Source: a phage. Taken from it: DNA of 49,798 nucleotides. Positions 23,501 through 29,165 of this stretch are shown one piece after another. The notes beneath the pieces are model-generated. The model did not search any database and was not told where the DNA came from. It was given only the letters and a program-made list of their open reading frames with translations. Position numbers and translations under genes: made by a program. The DNA is taken from sequence record NC_101840.1. One strand, written 5' to 3'. The first letter of the stretch is position 1; each line of letters begins with the position of its first letter.

Positions 23501-24556
23501 ATGAGTGATTTTAACGCCTACACTAGCGAAGAAATGAGCAACGAGCTTTATCATGATCCTAACGCGTGGACGGCTGAATATGTCAGCGGTTCCAGCCTAG
23601 CGGAGATTTACAGCACTTGCCCGGCGTACTGGAAGTACAAGCCGCGCCAGGAAACTAAAGCACTTGTTTTCGGTACGCAGTCGCATACCAACTTTGAAAG
23701 CAAGGAGCTATTCGAAAAAACATATCGCCGCGCACCGTCGCAGGATGATTTTAAAGATCTGATCACTAGTCAAACGGCGTTAGCATCAAAGCTGAAATCT
23801 TTTGGCCTGAAAGGTACAACGGGCAAACAATACCCTGAATTACTGGAAATGCTGTACAAGTGCGGCGAGGATCTCAATGTGTGGTGGCTTATCGAAATGA
23901 TGGCAGAATGCCAGGCCGCAGCGGACGGAGTGCAGTTAATAGACGCTAAAGATTATGATGCCTGTGTAGCGATGCGGCGCGTACTTGAGGCCATACCGGA
24001 GCATAACGCTTGCATGAACAGCCCAACCGCGCAGCGTGAAATGTCAATATTTGGGATCATCAACGGCGTAAAAGTAAAAGTGCGTCTTGATCACGTTGAC
24101 GTAAACAAGGATGTAAAGGCAACAATCATTAACGGTTACGACGAAAAAGGCAGGCCGATTTATGAAGAAGTCACCTATCCAGAAGCGGTGATTATCACTG
24201 ACTACAAAACAACGGTTAGCGCAAATCCGGTTGACTTCCAGCGCCTGGCTTACAATCACGGCTATTATCTTAAAATGGCTTTGCAACATGACTTATTCAA
24301 AAAGGCTTATCCAGACGAGGAAAGGCCAGTAATTGTAAGATTGCTTGCGCAGGAGAAGAAAGAGCCTTACTTGCCGCTTGCTTTCCGCATGAATATTGAG
24401 CAATTGAAGATCGGGCGCATCCAGTACATGAGCGTGATCAACAAGTTCAACGTTTGCCAGCAGTTAGACGAATGGCCTTCGTATGCAAACGGGCAACCGG
24501 AAATTGATCTTGATACTCCTGATTGGGTTCGTGCTCAATTCAGGCATTATCTTTGA
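23501..24556 (+). CDS. PD-(D/E)XK exonuclease (RecE/YqaJ-like recombination exonuclease)
   Basis: RLDHVD ... ITDYKT catalytic-type motifs; precedes Erf-like and SSB genes. Confidence 0.6.
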   Translation: MSDFNAYTSEEMSNELYHDPNAWTAEYVSGSSLAEIYSTCPAYWKYKPRQETKALVFGTQSHTNFESKELFEKTYRRAPSQDDFKDLITSQTALASKLKSFGLKGTTGKQYPELLEMLYKCGEDLNVWWLIEMMAECQAAADGVQLIDAKDYDACVAMRRVLEAIPEHNACMNSPTAQREMSIFGIINGVKVKVRLDHVDVNKDVKATIINGYDEKGRPIYEEVTYPEAVIITDYKTTVSANPVDFQRLAYNHGYYLKMALQHDLFKKAYPDEERPVIVRLLAQEKKEPYLPLAFRMNIEQLKIGRIQYMSVINKFNVCQQLDEWPSYANGQPEIDLDTPDWVRAQFRHYL

Positions 24557-24631
24557 TAAACTAAACAAATAGCTAAACTTTTATAATGGTTGGTGATATA
24601 ATTCGCCAACCAGATAACGGGAGAATGATAA

Positions 24632-24889
24632 ATGACAGACAAAGACAATGCCACATTATTGCATTTAGAACGATTCATTGATCGAGTAACCATTGCAATG
24701 AAAGAATTTATTAAGCCGATGAACATTAAAGAGTCGGAAGAAATGAAGACTTACATCAAGGACGTGGTTGCATCCATTGACAACGTTATCCTTGTTGCAA
24801 CGATGAGCAAGGGAAACAAAGAGCGCGAGAGGTTGGTTGCTGAATCAACAGAAGAATTTATTAAAATGCTTGAAAGCGAGAAGGAATAA
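24632..24889 (+). CDS. hypothetical protein (85 aa)
   Basis: track ORF with RBS, within recombination operon. Confidence 0.45.
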   Translation: MTDKDNATLLHLERFIDRVTIAMKEFIKPMNIKESEEMKTYIKDVVASIDNVILVATMSKGNKERERLVAESTEEFIKMLESEKE

Positions 24890-25546
<657 letters not shown>

Positions 25547-25589
25547 TAAACGGGGCGCTTGCGCCCCTTTTGTCATAGGAGAAAACAAA

Positions 25590-26042
25590 ATGCACGTTAT
25601 TACAGGTGAGATTCGAAAAGAGCCAAAAGTAAAGCAAATGCCTAACGGCAGCACGCTATATGTTATTGAGCTTTCCGAACGATACAAAGACCGAGAAGGA
25701 AATTGGCAGTATACAAACTATGTGTTTTTCTTTAACGCGAAAACAGACGGCCTGAATGGTTGGTATGCTGAGGCGTTCCAGGTGGGCAAGGTTATTTCTG
25801 TTTCCTGCGATACCTTGCGAGTTGAAACGCGAGAATACAACGGAAAGATTTACAGTACCGTGCAGCCTGGCGGATTTGCAAACTTGCTATTTAGCCAGAG
25901 AGGTGAAAGCCAGCAACAATATCAGCAGCGAACGCAAGGAGGATGGGGGCAACCACAACAGCAACAGCAACAAAATACTCAACAGCAGCCGCAGCAAAGC
26001 AATCAGCCTCCGATTGACTTTGACGACGATATACCATTCTGA
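25590..26042 (+). CDS. ssb: single-stranded DNA-binding protein
   Basis: OB-fold-like N-terminus, Gln/Gly-rich linker, acidic C-terminal tail DFDDDIPF; start from internal ATG of track ORF 25539. Confidence 0.8.
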   Translation: MHVITGEIRKEPKVKQMPNGSTLYVIELSERYKDREGNWQYTNYVFFFNAKTDGLNGWYAEAFQVGKVISVSCDTLRVETREYNGKIYSTVQPGGFANLLFSQRGESQQQYQQRTQGGWGQPQQQQQQNTQQQPQQSNQPPIDFDDDIPF

Positions 26043-26045
26043 TAA

Positions 26046-26076
26046 CAAAAAGCCCCGCGTATGCGGGGCATTTTTT
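26046..26076. terminator. bidirectional rho-independent terminator
   Basis: A-run, GCCCCGC-GTAT-GCGGGGC hairpin, T-run, between convergent operons. Confidence 0.6.
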
Positions 26077-26581
26077 AGTCTAACGTGGTTGGTTTGTTTA
26101 CCAGTGCCGCTACAACCGCTTTTAGCTCGTCAATTTCTTTTCTCATCTCATCGTTTTCCGCTTTCAGTTTCTTAACGTGGTGAATCAGTGGAACAGTGAG
26201 GCGCTCATACATAACGCCTTCCGCCACCATGCCATTACTTGAAGCAATGGCAGGATCTTCTCCTTCTTGCAGCGGTCGCCAGTGAACGTACTCCGGCGCA
26301 ATTTCTCCAACCTCTTCCGCGATTAGCCCGTACCATCCCCAATCTTTACGGTCGCTTTCACAGGTTGACCGATACCACACAGGACGCATTTCAAGCATCA
26401 GATCCGCATATTCATCAATAACCGATTCTACGCTGCTCTTATAACGAGAAGAGGAAGTGGAGCGTAAAACTTGCGACACTCCAGCATTTGGATCAAGCCA
26501 TAAGTTTGCTGATTGAGCGGTTGTGTTAATATTAAATAAATAAAATGCATCGTTACCAGTTAGGGGGGTAAAAACTCCCAC
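26075..26581 (-). CDS. tail-fibre C-terminal intramolecular chaperone domain (peptidase S74-like); probably the 3' part of a frameshifted fibre gene
   Basis: SSSRYK, MRPVWYR and GLIAEEVGEIAPE motifs of self-cleaving fibre chaperone domains; GTG start and overlap with upstream ORF. Confidence 0.55.
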   Translation of the reverse strand: MGVFTPLTGNDAFYLFNINTTAQSANLWLDPNAGVSQVLRSTSSSRYKSSVESVIDEYADLMLEMRPVWYRSTCESDRKDWGWYGLIAEEVGEIAPEYVHWRPLQEGEDPAIASSNGMVAEGVMYERLTVPLIHHVKKLKAENDEMRKEIDELKAVVAALVNKPTTLD

Positions 26582-26813
26582 TATACCTTCCGCTACCCAA
26601 CTCGGATGATAGATCAGTTTGTTTTAGATACGGTTTCAACTTATTGTCAACATCAGCAGTTGATGCTTTTCCTGCAACATCCTGTTTTAGTGTCGAAACG
26701 TCATTTTTCAGCTTCGTTATATCACCAGGAATAGTAGCAACATCCTGTTTTAGTGTTGAAACGTCATTTTTCAGCTTCGTTATATCACTAGGTATAACAG
26801 TGACTGTAGCCAT
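26553..26813 (-). CDS. tail-fibre segment with perfect 20-aa tandem repeat (86 aa); likely 5' part of the same fibre gene
   Basis: AAGGAG RBS; IPxDITKLKNDVSTLKQDVA repeated twice; ends at stop just after a T5/C6 homopolymer. Confidence 0.5.
   Translation of the reverse strand: MATVTVIPSDITKLKNDVSTLKQDVATIPGDITKLKNDVSTLKQDVAGKASTADVDNKLKPYLKQTDLSSELGSGRYSGSFYPPNW
26676..26795. repeat. two tandem 60-bp direct repeats inside the fibre ORF
   Basis: near-identical 60-mers on the + strand with 2 mismatches. Confidence 0.7.
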
Positions 26814-26825
26814 TTTCCTAACTCC

Positions 26826-27104
26826 TTAAGCCCATTCTCTAATAGGCTGATCTAACTCAACCACGTATCCATTAAAAATTACGGCATCAAACTTATCATC
26901 AATGATTCGCACATTAACGAAATAGCCGTCGTTCTTTCGCGCAATCTCCTCGCCATCGTCAGATCGTGCAATTACTGTATAAGTATTGCCGATTACATCG
27001 AGCAGGATTGCATCCTGAATGGATTCGTTATCATCCCAATTAATTTTTCCTAAAAAGGCCGAAAACTCGGCCTTGTCTGAAAATTTTAATGTTAAATCAC
27101 GCAT
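26826..27104 (-). CDS. hypothetical tail-fibre-associated protein (92 aa)
   Basis: ATGA coupling to fibre gene; GGGGGAA RBS; start from internal ATG of track ORF 26826..27149. Confidence 0.45.
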   Translation of the reverse strand: MRDLTLKFSDKAEFSAFLGKINWDDNESIQDAILLDVIGNTYTVIARSDDGEEIARKNDGYFVNVRIIDDKFDAVIFNGYVVELDQPIREWA

Positions 27105-29059
27105 TAAACAATTTCCCCCAATTGATGATCTGTTAGCGCCTTGTGCCATATACGGAAGTTTCTAACGTGCCCGAAAAGATGGCGTTCGCCTGTACTTGTT
27201 TGTCCGCCAATCCTTATAGTAGCCGTTGATACTATATATCTCCATTCCGTTTTTGTTTCGCTTGACATTCTGGCATTACTTACACAACAAGTATTGTAAT
27301 CACTCTTTACTCTCATTCCTATGATCATCTTTTTTAGTTTCGCATTCTCGTTAACCCTTCTGTTTGATTTACCTATATCGCAATAAGGGAATCCATCAGC
27401 ATCGCCTTCGGCAGACCCGAAAGCAAGAATAATTCCCGCACCAGATTGATGACCTCCAGTATCGAAAACACGAGGCGCAGCGTTTGGCGTTATACTCCAG
27501 TTTTTATGAGCTTCCACAAGCACTGTAAACGGCAAATTGTAAAGGTTGTTTTTTATTGGCAATGTAACCATATCGCTTGCCCTTGTTGTCGGACTTTTAT
27601 TAGTTATAATGAATGATGAAGCGCAAGATCCAACCTCTACTTGAGGAGTTGTTAAATCCATAAAGCTATTTTCATCAAAAACTTCTCCTTGTTTATTAAC
27701 GACCTGTATTACCCCCCTAATGTAAGTTGATTCATCAGTAACTTTGTAAACTATTTCTGCAAAAATCCATTCCCCGTCTATGGTAGCGTTCTTTAGCACT
27801 ATGTTTTTTGCGTCAACTCCAGAAGTTGCCACCCCTAAGTTATCGCAATCAATAATAGCAGAAGCAACAGAAGATAAAGGATCTCCCTTGTCAAATCTTG
27901 CTGCAAATCTTACATTTTTCCCCTTAGCCCTAAAAGATATTGTAACTCCATCACCCTTTACAACTGCAATCTTATTTGCAGTAGGTCCAGCTATAACAGT
28001 GTAAGAGCCTACGCCACCTAAATATTCCCCTGGTTTAAATGTTGCATACTTAAACCCCCTTTCATCAGTCTTAGTTTCACCTCTTTCTAATCCTGGATTT
28101 GGATTCCATGATTCAGGCTTATTTGAATTTACAAAATAGTTTGTTCTCTGCCCTTCAATCAAAAGACCATCCTTTTCAAATCTAGGTTCATCAATAGCAG
28201 CATCAGTAAGCAACCCAGACTTATTAATGTAAGTAGCGGTTGATGCACGTTTAAACTTAACAATCTTGTCACCTGGCATCGTGATCTCATCATCACCTAT
28301 GACAATCTTTTTGTATGACGGCGAGAATCCGGTGATCATATCCAGGGAATCATTAAATGGTATCCACACGTCAGGTAGAGGCTGCAATAAATCTTTGTAA
28401 GGTTCTGCGGCCTGTTTTGCGTATTCCTCCGCTTGATCTCGCGCACTTTCAGCGCCTGCCTTTGCGGTGTTCGCAGCATCACGCGCAGTTTCAGCGCCTT
28501 TTCTTGCAGTTTCAGCGCCAGTCTTTGCAGTGTTTGCAGCGTCGCGCGCGGATTCAGCGGCAGCCTTTGCAGTGTCAGCACCTTTCTTGCTATTCTTTGC
28601 ATTTGTTGCGCTTGTCTTTGCGTTATTCTCGCTAGTTTTAGCTGCCTTCTGGCTTGCTGCGGCTGCGTCAGCATTTGTCTTTACGTCTTCCTGGATCTTC
28701 TGTAGCTTATCCCAATCAAAATCCTTGATGATCTCAATAAATCCAGCAAACTCCGATTCCTTCCCCTGGTAATAACGCAACGTTTCCGCTACGTCTTGCG
28801 CAAGACCGTCAACCGTTAACGAGTCATGAAGCAAGATCAGGTAATTTGTCTTCTGTACTACCGCGCCTCCAGTAGTAATTGCGCGAATGCTTGTATCGCT
28901 AATCACTTCTGTAATCACAGCAGCTTGCAAAGGTTGAGCAAGAAAGAAAATAGTTGCACCTGGGCGAATCAAGGTTAATTGCTCACGCCATTTTGTACCG
29001 TAACCAGTTACATAACCTTGCGCGTCCATAGACGCTTGGCCTTGTCTGTAAATCGCCAT
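27104..29059 (-). CDS. side tail fibre protein (about 651 aa)
   Basis: N-terminal Ala/Thr/Lys-rich fibre repeats; GGAGG RBS before ATG 29059 (track start 29083 is GTG). Confidence 0.7.
   Translation of the reverse strand: MAIYRQGQASMDAQGYVTGYGTKWREQLTLIRPGATIFFLAQPLQAAVITEVISDTSIRAITTGGAVVQKTNYLILLHDSLTVDGLAQDVAETLRYYQGKESEFAGFIEIIKDFDWDKLQKIQEDVKTNADAAAASQKAAKTSENNAKTSATNAKNSKKGADTAKAAAESARDAANTAKTGAETARKGAETARDAANTAKAGAESARDQAEEYAKQAAEPYKDLLQPLPDVWIPFNDSLDMITGFSPSYKKIVIGDDEITMPGDKIVKFKRASTATYINKSGLLTDAAIDEPRFEKDGLLIEGQRTNYFVNSNKPESWNPNPGLERGETKTDERGFKYATFKPGEYLGGVGSYTVIAGPTANKIAVVKGDGVTISFRAKGKNVRFAARFDKGDPLSSVASAIIDCDNLGVATSGVDAKNIVLKNATIDGEWIFAEIVYKVTDESTYIRGVIQVVNKQGEVFDENSFMDLTTPQVEVGSCASSFIITNKSPTTRASDMVTLPIKNNLYNLPFTVLVEAHKNWSITPNAAPRVFDTGGHQSGAGIILAFGSAEGDADGFPYCDIGKSNRRVNENAKLKKMIIGMRVKSDYNTCCVSNARMSSETKTEWRYIVSTATIRIGGQTSTGERHLFGHVRNFRIWHKALTDHQLGEIV
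28430..28640. repeat. degenerate short repeats encoding Ala/Thr/Lys-rich fibre segment
   Basis: reiterated GCNGAA/ACNGCNAAA-type codon blocks. Confidence 0.4.
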
Positions 29060-29074
29060 TTGTAAAATCCTCCT

Positions 29075-29096
29075 AAATAGCACTTTTTGCTAATGA
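29075..29096 (+). promoter_or_regulatory. conserved junction box, inverted relative to the leftward fibre gene
   Basis: AAATAGCACTTTTTGCTAATGA about 16 nt upstream of the fibre gene start on the opposite strand. Confidence 0.45.
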
Positions 29097-29123: not shown

Positions 29124-29149
29124 CAAAAAAAAACCCCGCATAAGCGGGG
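29124..29149 (-). terminator. rho-independent terminator after primase gene
   Basis: on minus strand: CCCCGC-TTAT-GCGGGG hairpin followed by T8. Confidence 0.6.
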
Positions 29150-29165
29150 CAATACTAGCGGAGTT

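What the first reader, a model, noticed from the sequence alone, without database searches (positions are those of the whole stretch)
26676..26795. Near-perfect 60-bp tandem duplication inside a tail-fibre ORF
Two adjacent 60-bp units differ at only 2 positions and encode the duplicated peptide IPxDITKLKNDVSTLKQDVA. Such young tandem repeats can expand or contract by slipped-strand or homologous recombination and alter fibre length or receptor reach.
Basis: seen in the sequence. Interest (0 to 1): 0.4.

Follow-up and report, generated by a model that had tools for sequence, protein, structure and literature searches.

The report
Heptad-preserving duplication in broken mini-fibre gene
A real 63-bp in-frame duplication adds three coiled-coil heptads to the stalk of a small accessory tail-fibre protein of the T1-like coliphage orkinos, but the same allele occurs in many related phages, and in this phage the gene is cut in two by a one-base frameshift, so this is an ordinary fibre-length polymorphism in a probably dead gene.

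Summary
The repeat is real but was mis-measured. It has period 63, not 60, and lies on the minus strand: copy 1 at 26733-26795, copy 2 at 26670-26732. It scores 58/63 identical against a simulated maximum of 34. It encodes two 21-aa units, each exactly three heptads, with 11/11 a/d positions I/L/V in one unbroken register.

It is not in the 659-aa tail fibre. It sits in an 86-aa ORF, the 5' fragment of a small gene two genes downstream. In relatives that gene encodes a 224-245-aa protein: coiled-coil stalk, tip, and a self-cleaving Peptidase_S74 chaperone domain. Here a C5-to-C6 insertion (26563-26568) splits it into 86 + 168 aa.

The window is phage orkinos (MN850586, Warwickvirus). Among 35 relatives the locus is polymorphic: 1 unit (11 phages), 1 1/3 units (11) and 2 units (13). 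Intact proteins differ by 7, 14 or 21 aa, always whole heptads. The 2-unit allele spans at least four species, so it is neither young nor private.

This gene carries independent nonsense or frameshift lesions in 13 of 21 sequenced relatives. The adjacent 92-aa gene has none, and no split of the main fibre gene is seen. It appears dispensable in cultured isolates. Modest interest.

The parts
26733..26795 (-). Repeat unit 1 (63 nt), encoding IPSDITKLKNDVSTLKQDVAT (residues 7-27 of the 86-aa ORF), which is three heptads.
   Evidence: An exact 29-nt core lies at 26758-26786.
26670..26732 (-). Repeat unit 2 (63 nt), encoding IPGDITKLKNDVSTLKQDVAG (residues 28-48).
   Evidence: An exact 29-nt core lies at 26695-26723. 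The unit is absent from tunzivis, JK16, G3B1, brachmannus and ityhuna.
26553..26813 (-). 86-aa ORF, the 5' fragment of the split mini-fibre gene. It holds the N-terminal motif and coiled-coil stalk, then three out-of-frame residues (PNW) and a stop.
   Evidence: It aligns to residues 1-83 of the intact 245-aa proteins of tunus, XY3 and SLUR29.
26563..26568 (-). C6 homopolymer (G6 on the + strand). It is C5 in every relative with an intact gene; the extra C shifts the frame.
   Evidence: Alignments, sequence. C6 is also present in JLBYU19 and AV105, the latter on a different haplotype.
26075..26581 (-). 168-aa ORF (GTG start), the 3' fragment of the gene. It holds the fibre tip region and the Peptidase_S74 intramolecular-chaperone domain (Pfam core about 26285-26455), followed by a C-terminal helix.
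   Evidence: Pfam PF13884 at 22.3 bits against a cut-off of 22. Identical to P0016 'orkinos_35'. The AF2 model has pLDDT about 90 over this half, and Foldseek's top hits are 7dc3, 3gud and 3gw6. A family profile hits 8hqz_d residues 955-1075.
26826..27104 (-). 92-aa gene of unknown function (phrog_1361), the middle gene of the conserved three-gene fibre cassette.
   Evidence: Intact in 21/21 genomes. A gene of about 90 aa holds the same position in L018 and L019.
27104..29083 (-). Main lateral tail fibre gene: 659 aa from the GTG, or 651 aa from the ATG at 29059 as annotated in relatives. It contains its own period-63 repeat at 28443-28579.
   Evidence: phrog_1419 'tail protein', E = 3e-209. 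Annotated as tail fiber, side tail fiber or lateral tail fiber in relatives.
26052..26069 (.). Bidirectional hairpin terminator that closes the fibre operon (minus strand) and the convergent SSB gene (plus strand).

Best explanation
The feature is an in-frame 63-bp (21-aa, three-heptad) tandem duplication in the N-terminal alpha-helical coiled-coil stalk of a small accessory fibre protein.

The intact protein, 224-245 aa in relatives, has four parts: a conserved N-terminal motif (MATVTxIPxDITxLK); a heptad stalk of variable length; a short tip region; and a C-terminal Peptidase_S74 intramolecular-chaperone domain. That last domain would drive trimer folding and then cut itself off at the invariant Ser120/Lys125 dyad. 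The gene is the third in a mobile cassette of large fibre, a protein of about 90 aa, then the S74 mini-fibre.

Indels between short direct repeats, arising by replication slippage or unequal recombination, have produced three length alleles in the genus Warwickvirus: 1, 1 1/3 and 2 units. All keep the heptad register, so they lengthen or shorten the stalk by about 1, 2 or 3 nm without breaking the coiled coil. The phage encodes its own ERF annealase, PDDEXK nuclease and SSB next door, which could promote such events. The 2-unit allele in this window is an old, widely shared allele, not a new event.

In this phage (orkinos) a separate C5-to-C6 insertion 3' of the repeat splits the gene. That uncouples the stalk from the tip and chaperone domain, so the repeat now sits in what is most likely a non-functional remnant. 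The gene is repeatedly inactivated in cultured isolates while its neighbours stay intact. This suggests the mini-fibre is dispensable, or mildly costly, for growth on laboratory E. coli.

Shown: the repeat, its frame and register, the allele series, the frameshift, the S74 fold and the lesion catalogue. Inferred: the trimeric state, the length effect, self-cleavage, the mechanism of the indels and the reason for gene loss.
For: - Repeat and statistics.
- Heptad register: 11/11 a/d positions are I/L/V across residues 10-48 in one register, unbroken through the junction.
- Helix: AF2 places residues 11-47 of the 96%-identical intact homologue P0001 in one continuous helix.
- Sequence similarity of the repeat to trimeric coiled-coil fibres: P22 gp26 (4lin), Lpp and fibritin, plus Pfam LPP.
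- S74 domain: Pfam PF13884 starts at residue 120. S120, S121 and K125 are invariant in 39 homologues. Foldseek hits MyRF ICA 7dc3 (E = 9e-6), 3gud and 3gw6. The family profile hits the C-terminus of the L-shaped tail fibre 8hqz_d.
- Allele series: spans of 237, 258, 300 and 301 nt in 40 records, verified base by base in 20 relatives. Intact proteins are 224, 231 and 245 aa.
- Independent heptad duplication in P0019, and two diverged IPxD units in P0018 and P0020.
- Single-unit alleles match crossover products of the two units.
- Frameshift: C6 in the window against C5 in intact relatives.
- Lesions: 13/21 genomes disrupted, by at least 9 different lesions. The neighbouring 92-aa gene has 0/21. 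The main fibre is a single full-length CDS wherever it is annotated (20 of 21 genomes; brachmannus carries no annotation).
- Cassette conserved in a 60-kb phage contig and in an E. coli prophage. The module occurs fused to long fibres.
- ERF and PDDEXK genes lie adjacent.
- Literature: Drexlerviridae lateral fibres are thought to bind O-antigen and to be non-essential on K-12 (PMC8594841). A microhomology-mediated in-frame deletion in the Bas13 lateral fibre gave a general fitness gain in culture (bioRxiv 10.1101/2023.05.21.541620).
Against: - No direct evidence for trimerisation, self-cleavage, presence in the virion or any receptor.
- The AF2 model is a monomer and has only moderate confidence over the stalk (pLDDT about 70). 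A Pro-Gly at the unit junction could make a hinge rather than a continuous coiled coil.
- The direction of change cannot be fixed: expansion from 1 unit or contraction from 2.
- The C6 call has not been checked against reads.
- Lab-driven loss is untested. Only two uncultivated contigs were found (both intact). Isolates undergo few passages, so the null alleles might already circulate in nature.
- BASEL annotates the gene as a 'putative lateral tail fiber chaperone'. If that were right it would not itself be a fibre.
Confidence: 0.75

Rival explanations
1. The C6 run is a sequencing or assembly error. The real orkinos genome would then have C5 and an intact 245-aa, two-unit mini-fibre, and the duplication would be functionally expressed.
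For: The lesion is a single-base change in a homopolymer, the classic error type. tuinn is 99.3% identical over the 301 nt and has C5.
Against: Orkinos was sequenced on Illumina NextSeq (PMC7552041), a platform where 5/6-mer miscalls are uncommon. Two independently sequenced genomes from other laboratories (JLBYU19, AV105) also carry C6. Eight of the other 18 sequenced relatives carry base-substitution stops or non-homopolymer indels in the same gene, so a broken state is normal for this locus.
Confidence: 0.1
2. The split is functional. Full-length protein would be made by +1 ribosomal slippage of tRNA-Pro on CCC_CCU, which would restore the wild-type ...YPLTGND... sequence exactly. Alternatively, the 168-aa chaperone part is translated separately from the GTG at 26581 and acts in trans.
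For: A +1 slip on the C run regenerates the wild-type sequence (read directly). An SD-like GGAAGG lies 4 nt upstream of the GTG. Annotators called both ORFs.
Against: Only 3 of about 35 relatives have C6, so it is not a conserved programmed site. No adjacent stop or rare codon and no well-placed stimulator is visible. Other relatives are broken at unrelated positions. S74 domains are defined as intramolecular, and my recollection, not tested here, is that they do not complement in trans.
Confidence: 0.07
3. The duplication is a recent event private to this phage lineage and is an actively unstable, expanding array.
For: The core identity is high, including a 29-nt exact block. In orkinos and tuinn, copy 2 is closer to copy 1 than in other phages: 7 differences against 9-10.
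Against: The same 2-unit allele with the same junction is present in 12 other phages across at least four ICTV species and on two 5' haplotypes. No allele with more than 2 units appears in 40 records or in the protein search. The junction differs at 4 of the last 4 nt from what a simple duplication would give.
Confidence: 0.05
4. The repeat acts at the DNA or RNA level, for example as paired protein-binding sites or a regulatory RNA element, and is not a protein repeat.
For: None specific. It lies near the 5' end of a gene.
Against: All natural length variants are multiples of 21 nt and keep both the reading frame and the heptad register. Differences between units are mostly synonymous or conservative. 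No promoter-like or terminator-like site overlaps it.
Confidence: 0.02

Closest known systems
Phage fibres and spikes with a C-terminal intramolecular chaperone (Peptidase_S74 / ICA domain): K1F endosialidase, GA-1 neck appendage, T5-type L-shaped tail fibre
   Same: The C-terminal domain matches Pfam PF13884. It has the same fold (3gw6, 3gud, 7dc3). It matches the C-terminus of the L-shaped tail fibre 8hqz_d. It has the invariant Ser-x4-Lys dyad. The same tip + S74 module ends long fibres in other phages.
   Different: The protein is only 224-245 aa, with a predicted mature part of about 119 aa. It is a separate third gene behind a 659-aa fibre that has no S74 domain of its own. Its pre-cleavage part is a short alpha-helical coiled coil, not a triple beta-helix. 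Cleavage and trimerisation were not tested.
Trimeric coiled-coil fibre shafts: P22 tail needle gp26, T4 fibritin, Braun lipoprotein Lpp
   Same: The a/d heptad pattern is the same, and the repeat shows direct sequence similarity to gp26, Lpp and fibritin. The best single hit, 4lin, is a gp26 chain in which HMMER aligns the query to two successive stretches (109-157 and 165-215). From memory, 4lin is an engineered, lengthened gp26, which would show that repeating such a helical core simply lengthens the fibre.
   Different: Those proteins have no S74 domain. Here the length variation is natural and polymorphic between phages.
Lambda PaPa stf frameshift (Hendrix and Duda 1992, from memory)
   Same: A single-base frameshift splits a side-tail-fibre gene into two ORFs in a phage propagated on E. 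coli K-12, where side fibres are dispensable.
   Different: In lambda the main fibre gene is hit. Here the main fibre and the 92-aa gene stay intact and only the small S74 gene decays, repeatedly and through many different lesions.
Microhomology-mediated in-frame deletion in the lateral tail fibre of Drexlerviridae phage Bas13 (bioRxiv 10.1101/2023.05.21.541620)
   Same: Same phage family and the same kind of event: an indel between short direct repeats in a lateral fibre gene. That deletion carried a measured fitness gain on K-12.
   Different: It is a deletion of 89 aa in the main fibre selected in an experiment, not a natural heptad-scale polymorphism in the accessory gene.
Hypermutable poly-G tracts in Campylobacter phage receptor-binding genes (Sorensen et al. 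2021, from memory)
   Same: A homopolymer length change switches a fibre gene on or off. C5-to-C6 recurs here on at least two haplotypes.
   Different: Those tracts are 9 or more bases long and vary within a lysate. This one is 5 or 6 bases long, and within-population variation is unknown.

Membership tests
Peptidase_S74 / intramolecular chaperone auto-processing (ICA) domain proteins | Sequence match to the S74 profile at the C-terminus | tested here: met
   PF13884 scores 22.3-22.5 bits against a cut-off of 22, at residues 43-99 of the 168-aa ORF and 120-176 of P0001. A family profile hits 8hqz_d residues 955-1075 at E = 4e-6. The single-sequence score is only just above threshold.
Peptidase_S74 / intramolecular chaperone auto-processing (ICA) domain proteins | ICA fold | tested here: met
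   The AF2 model has pLDDT about 90 over residues 125-240. Foldseek hits 7dc3 MyRF ICA at E = 9e-6 (prob 1.00), then 3gud and 3gw6.
Peptidase_S74 / intramolecular chaperone auto-processing (ICA) domain proteins | Catalytic Ser-Lys dyad (Ser, then Lys five residues later) at the domain boundary | tested here: met
   S120, S121 and K125 are invariant in 39 homologues. The S74 profile starts at residue 120. The dyad spacing is recalled from the endosialidase literature.
Peptidase_S74 / intramolecular chaperone auto-processing (ICA) domain proteins | Covalent linkage of the chaperone to the fibre part it folds, with autocleavage after trimerisation | tested here: not met
   In this window the C6 frameshift separates the stalk ORF (86 aa) from the tip + S74 ORF (168 aa). 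Linkage is present in intact relatives. Autocleavage itself cannot be tested with these tools.
Alpha-helical (trimeric) coiled-coil fibre shaft | Continuous heptad repeat with hydrophobic a/d positions | tested here: met
   11/11 a/d positions are I/L/V in residues 10-48 in one register; the other registers give 0-6.
Alpha-helical (trimeric) coiled-coil fibre shaft | Helical conformation across the repeat | tested here: met
   AF2 predicts a helix over residues 11-47 with no pLDDT dip at the P29-G30 junction. This is a monomer model of moderate confidence.
Alpha-helical (trimeric) coiled-coil fibre shaft | Trimeric oligomeric state | not testable with these tools
   Inferred only, from similarity to gp26, Lpp and fibritin and from the trimeric nature of S74 fibres.
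Copy-number-polymorphic coding tandem repeat | Different unit numbers at the orthologous site in relatives, all in frame | tested here: met
   Alleles with 1, 1 1/3 and 2 units in 35 phages. Intact proteins are 224, 231 and 245 aa.
Copy-number-polymorphic coding tandem repeat | Copy-number heterogeneity within one phage population | not testable with these tools
   No read data are available.
Programmed ribosomal frameshift site | Slippery site and two-frame layout conserved among relatives | tested here: not met
   C6 occurs in only 3 of about 35 phages. All others have C5 and a single frame, or unrelated lesions.
Homopolymer contingency (phase-variable) locus | Long hypermutable tract (typically 8 bases or more) | tested here: not met
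   The tract is 5 or 6 bases long.
Homopolymer contingency (phase-variable) locus | Recurrent independent length changes of the tract | tested here: inconclusive
   C6 is present on the AV105 haplotype and on the window and JLBYU19 haplotypes. The window's flanks resemble tuinn (C5) more than JLBYU19, which suggests 2-3 independent events, but recombination cannot be excluded.

The most novel reading that the evidence does not exclude
The mini-fibre gene would be a two-dial variability locus. The heptad repeat would tune stalk length (1, 1 1/3 or 2 units). The short C tract would act as a reversible on/off switch. Warwickvirus populations would then always contain virions with and without an accessory fibre of different reach. 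Under this reading, the roughly 40% of isolates with a null allele would reflect balanced or frequency-dependent selection in nature and not laboratory decay.
Probability: 0.06. Interest if true: 0.6.

Novelty: new member of a known kind. Interest (0 to 1): 0.28.

Why it matters
In-frame repeat-length variation in fibre shafts is a familiar way for phages to vary their fibre geometry, and this is a clean, well-resolved natural example. Every observed allele differs by a whole number of heptads, which supports the coiled-coil reading.

The more useful by-product is practical. In Warwickvirus genomes the small S74 gene behind the lateral fibre is often a pseudogene, broken by many independent lesions, while the fibre gene itself is conserved. 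Annotators currently call the fragments separate 'tail fiber domain' or 'hypothetical' proteins. Anyone using these phages for host-range work or engineering should check which allele they have and whether the gene is intact. The pattern also marks this accessory protein as non-essential on K-12. That makes it an easy target for testing what such mini-fibres do on O-antigen-bearing hosts.

Tried and rejected
- Pfam found nothing for the 659-aa fibre or the 92-aa protein.
- A single-sequence search of the PDB did not find the S74 domain. It matched only coiled coils. A family profile was needed to find it.
- I tried to test laboratory decay against natural decay using uncultivated sequences. 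The two Warwickvirus-type contigs are intact, but n = 2 is not a test.
- I looked for alleles with more than 2 units and found none in 40 phage records or 87 protein clusters.
- I considered that loss of the S74 gene is equivalent to loss of the whole lateral fibre (the chaperone reading). I rejected it as the sole explanation. The threefold larger fibre gene shows no split in any of the 20 annotated genomes, against 13 disrupted copies of the S74 gene. If lesions were spread evenly over both genes, this outcome would have probability of about 0.27^13.
- A link between C6 and the 2-unit allele (3 of 13 against 0 of 22) is only marginal and is confounded by shared ancestry, so I did not pursue it.

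Full report
**1. What is in the sequence**

Tandem Repeats Finder reports one strong array at 26674-26796: period 63, 2.0 copies, 95% matches, score 225. A direct comparison gives 58/63 identities at period 63 and only 19-26 at periods 57, 60 and 66. In 200 first-order Markov simulations of the window, the best 63-nt tandem match averaged 30.1 (sd 1.3, maximum 34). A 29-nt core occurs exactly twice, 63 nt apart, with none expected by chance.

The coding strand is the minus strand. In codon register, unit 1 is 26733-26795 and unit 2 is 26670-26732. They differ at 7 of 63 nt, and four of those differences are the last four bases, at the junction. The peptides are IPSDITKLKNDVSTLKQDVAT and IPGDITKLKNDVSTLKQDVAG.

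**2. Which gene it is in**

The repeat is not in the large tail fibre. The minus strand carries an operon bounded by hairpin terminators at 29133-29150 and 26052-26069. It contains:
- a 659-aa fibre gene (27104-29083; phrog_1419 'tail protein', E = 3e-209);
- a 92-aa gene of unknown function (26826-27104; phrog_1361);
- an 86-aa ORF (26553-26813) that holds the repeat at residues 7-48;
- an overlapping 168-aa ORF (26075-26581) with a Peptidase_S74 'chaperone of endosialidase' domain.

The last two ORFs overlap at GTTTTTACCCCCCTAA. The 86-aa frame stops three codons after a C6 run (26563-26568), and the +1 frame continues into the S74 ORF.

**3. Identity of the window and the state of relatives**

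The 168-aa ORF is identical to a database protein named orkinos_35 on a 49,798-bp contig. Escherichia phage orkinos (MN850586) is listed at 49,798 bp, genus Warwickvirus. It was isolated on E. coli K-12 MG1655 and sequenced on Illumina NextSeq (PMC7552041).

I aligned the locus from 20 related genomes. Relatives with C5 have a single ORF of 224, 231 or 245 aa. The window, JLBYU19 and AV105 have C6 and a split gene. AV105 sits on a clearly different flanking haplotype. The window's flanks resemble tuinn (C5) more than JLBYU19. The insertion therefore probably arose two or three times.

**4. The repeat is polymorphic, in whole heptads**

A 301-nt query across the locus matched 40 phage records. 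The spans fall into discrete classes:
- 237 nt: one unit;
- 258 nt: a 21-bp duplication of one heptad, DVSTLKQ;
- 300 nt: two units with C5;
- 301 nt: two units with C6;
- single records at 236 nt (brachmannus) and 287 nt (KMB46).

After removing duplicate records and adding the window, this gives 11 phages with one unit, 11 with 1 1/3 units and 13 with two units. No allele has more than two units.

Intact proteins are 224, 231 and 245 aa, so they differ by 7, 14 and 21 residues. The two-unit allele occurs in phages assigned to four ICTV species (tunus, swan01, SLUR29, SECphi27) and on two different 5' haplotypes.

The single unit of ityhuna is identical to copy 2 of most two-unit phages. The single unit of tunzivis, G3B1 and brachmannus matches copy 1 with copy 2's 3' end. 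Unequal crossover at different points of a two-unit parent would give exactly this pattern. KMB46 has a 13-bp deletion right at the unit junction.

The junction sequence GCT ACT cannot be made by simply duplicating a one-unit allele. Homologues at 56% identity (P0018, P0020) also carry two diverged IPxD units. Another homologue (P0019) has its own heptad duplication, GNVSTLQGNVSTLQ. The two-unit layout is therefore old or recurrent in this family, not a young private event.

**5. What the protein is**

- Across residues 10-48, all 11 a/d positions are Ile, Leu or Val in a single register that runs unbroken through both units.
- An AlphaFold2 model of the 96%-identical intact homologue P0001 places residues 11-47 in one helix. 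It models the C-terminal ~120 residues at pLDDT about 90.
- Foldseek's top hits for that model are the MyRF ICA domain (7dc3, E = 9e-6), the GA-1 intramolecular chaperone (3gud) and the endosialidase chaperone (3gw6).
- A profile of 39 homologues hits the last 120 residues of a solved L-shaped tail fibre chain (8hqz_d).
- S120, S121 and K125 are invariant, and the Pfam S74 match begins at residue 120. This fits the Ser-Lys autocleavage dyad; the spacing is recalled from the endosialidase literature.
- The repeat itself resembles the trimeric coiled coils of P22 gp26, Lpp and fibritin.
- In PHROGs the whole 245-aa protein aligns to the C-terminal ~240 positions of a 1385-position family. In two IMG/VR contigs the tip + S74 module ends a longer fibre ORF.
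- The three-gene order (fibre, a protein of about 90 aa, S74 protein) recurs in a 60-kb phage contig and in an E. coli prophage next to its integrase.

I conclude that the intact gene encodes a short, self-chaperoned, probably trimeric accessory fibre. Its stalk length is set by the number of heptads. Three heptads would add about 3 nm. That figure is an inference from standard coiled-coil geometry.

**6. State in this phage**

With C6, the stalk ORF ends after three wrong residues (PNW), and the tip and S74 domain are in another frame. Because the S74 domain is an intramolecular folding device, the split most likely abolishes function.

A +1 slip of tRNA-Pro on CCC_CCU would restore the wild-type sequence exactly. 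However, nothing marks this as a programmed site, and only 3 of about 35 relatives have C6. I give that reading 7%. I give a homopolymer miscall 10%, because the data are Illumina and because two other laboratories' genomes show the same C6.

**7. Recurrent inactivation**

Of the 21 genomes read base by base, 13 have a disrupted S74 gene, with at least nine different lesions:
- C5 to C6: window, JLBYU19, AV105;
- Tyr to stop at the same codon: EC195, JLBYU07;
- Glu to stop: tuinn;
- Gly to stop: Phunderstruck;
- Glu to stop near the C-terminus: JLBYU01;
- one-base indels: ityhuna, JLBYU10, brachmannus (an unverified record), SECphi27 (near the C-terminus);
- the 13-bp junction deletion: KMB46.

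EC125 also appears split by its annotation. The other 13 unfetched phages each list the gene as a single CDS. That gives about 14 of 35 disrupted.

The adjacent 92-aa gene is intact in 21 of 21 genomes. The threefold larger fibre gene is a single full-length CDS in all 20 annotated genomes (brachmannus carries no annotation). Decay is therefore specific to the mini-fibre gene.

This fits the published view that Drexlerviridae lateral fibres bind O-antigen and are not needed on K-12 (PMC8594841). It also fits the finding that a microhomology deletion in the Bas13 lateral fibre increased fitness in culture. But it does not show whether the null alleles arise during isolation or already circulate in nature. 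The only two uncultivated Warwickvirus-type contigs I could retrieve are intact, which is too few to decide.

**8. How the repeat changes**

The phage encodes an ERF-family annealing protein and a PDDEXK nuclease, and the next ORF is annotated as SSB in relatives. All three lie immediately downstream on the other strand. Exact 29-nt blocks 63 nt apart are a good substrate for slippage or single-strand annealing. The 21-bp allele is flanked by GAYGTT microhomology. The mechanism is inferred, not shown.

**9. Verdict**

The finding is a genuine, in-frame, register-preserving duplication in a fibre-type coiled coil, and copy number does vary among relatives. It is not young, not private to this phage, not in the main fibre and not 60 bp. 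In this genome it lies in a frameshifted, probably dead gene.

This is a new example of a well-known kind of variation. The recurrent, gene-specific pseudogenisation is the most interesting by-product.

Noticed in passing
window 26563-26568 (C6 on the minus strand): A one-base homopolymer expansion (C5 in intact relatives) splits the S74 mini-fibre gene into 86-aa and 168-aa ORFs. The same C6 is present in JLBYU19 and, on a different haplotype, in AV105.
   Followed up: yes
window 26075-26813, and loci L001-L017 and L021-L023: The small S74 gene carries independent nonsense or frameshift lesions in 13 of 21 related genomes, with at least 9 different lesions. The adjacent 92-aa gene has none, and the main fibre gene is a single full-length CDS in all 20 annotated genomes.
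   Followed up: yes
L011 (EC195) and L023 (JLBYU07): The identical Tyr-to-stop change (…APE*VHW) occurs on two different repeat alleles (2 units and 1 1/3 units). This is either a recurrent mutation or a null allele moved by recombination.
   Followed up: partly
window 28443-28579 (minus strand), inside the 659-aa fibre gene: A second tandem array with the same 63-bp period (2.2 copies, 78% matches, with a nested 21-bp period). From the translation it encodes Ala/Thr/Lys-rich 21-aa units (…AKTGAETARKGAETARDAANTAKAGAESARD…). The tunzivis record annotates a repeat_region in the corresponding part of its fibre gene.
   Followed up: no
window 26052-26069 and 29133-29150: Two near-identical GC-rich hairpins (GCCCCGC-NNNN-GCGGGG[C/T]) bracket the fibre operon. 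The first is flanked by T-runs on both strands and serves as a bidirectional terminator for the convergent SSB gene.
   Followed up: partly
window 23501-26042 (+ strand): A recombination module lies directly beside the fibre operon: a PDDEXK-like nuclease (PF12684), an ERF-family annealing protein (PF04404), and an SSB with a Gln-rich tail containing a short CAACAG repeat at 25956-25972.
   Followed up: partly
L025 and L026 (IMG/VR UViGs, about 52 kb and 26 kb): The tip + S74 module (67% identical) is fused to the C-terminus of a longer fibre ORF, with no separate coiled-coil stalk gene. This shows the module moves between split and fused fibre architectures.
   Followed up: partly
L019 (E. 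coli GCA_001647315.1 contig LRHQ01000038.1): The same three-gene cassette (659-aa fibre cut by the contig end, an 89-aa protein, a 227-aa S74 protein) sits at the end of a prophage next to dinI and an integrase. The 227-aa protein's cluster has 650 member sequences, so the cassette is common in E. coli prophages.
   Followed up: no
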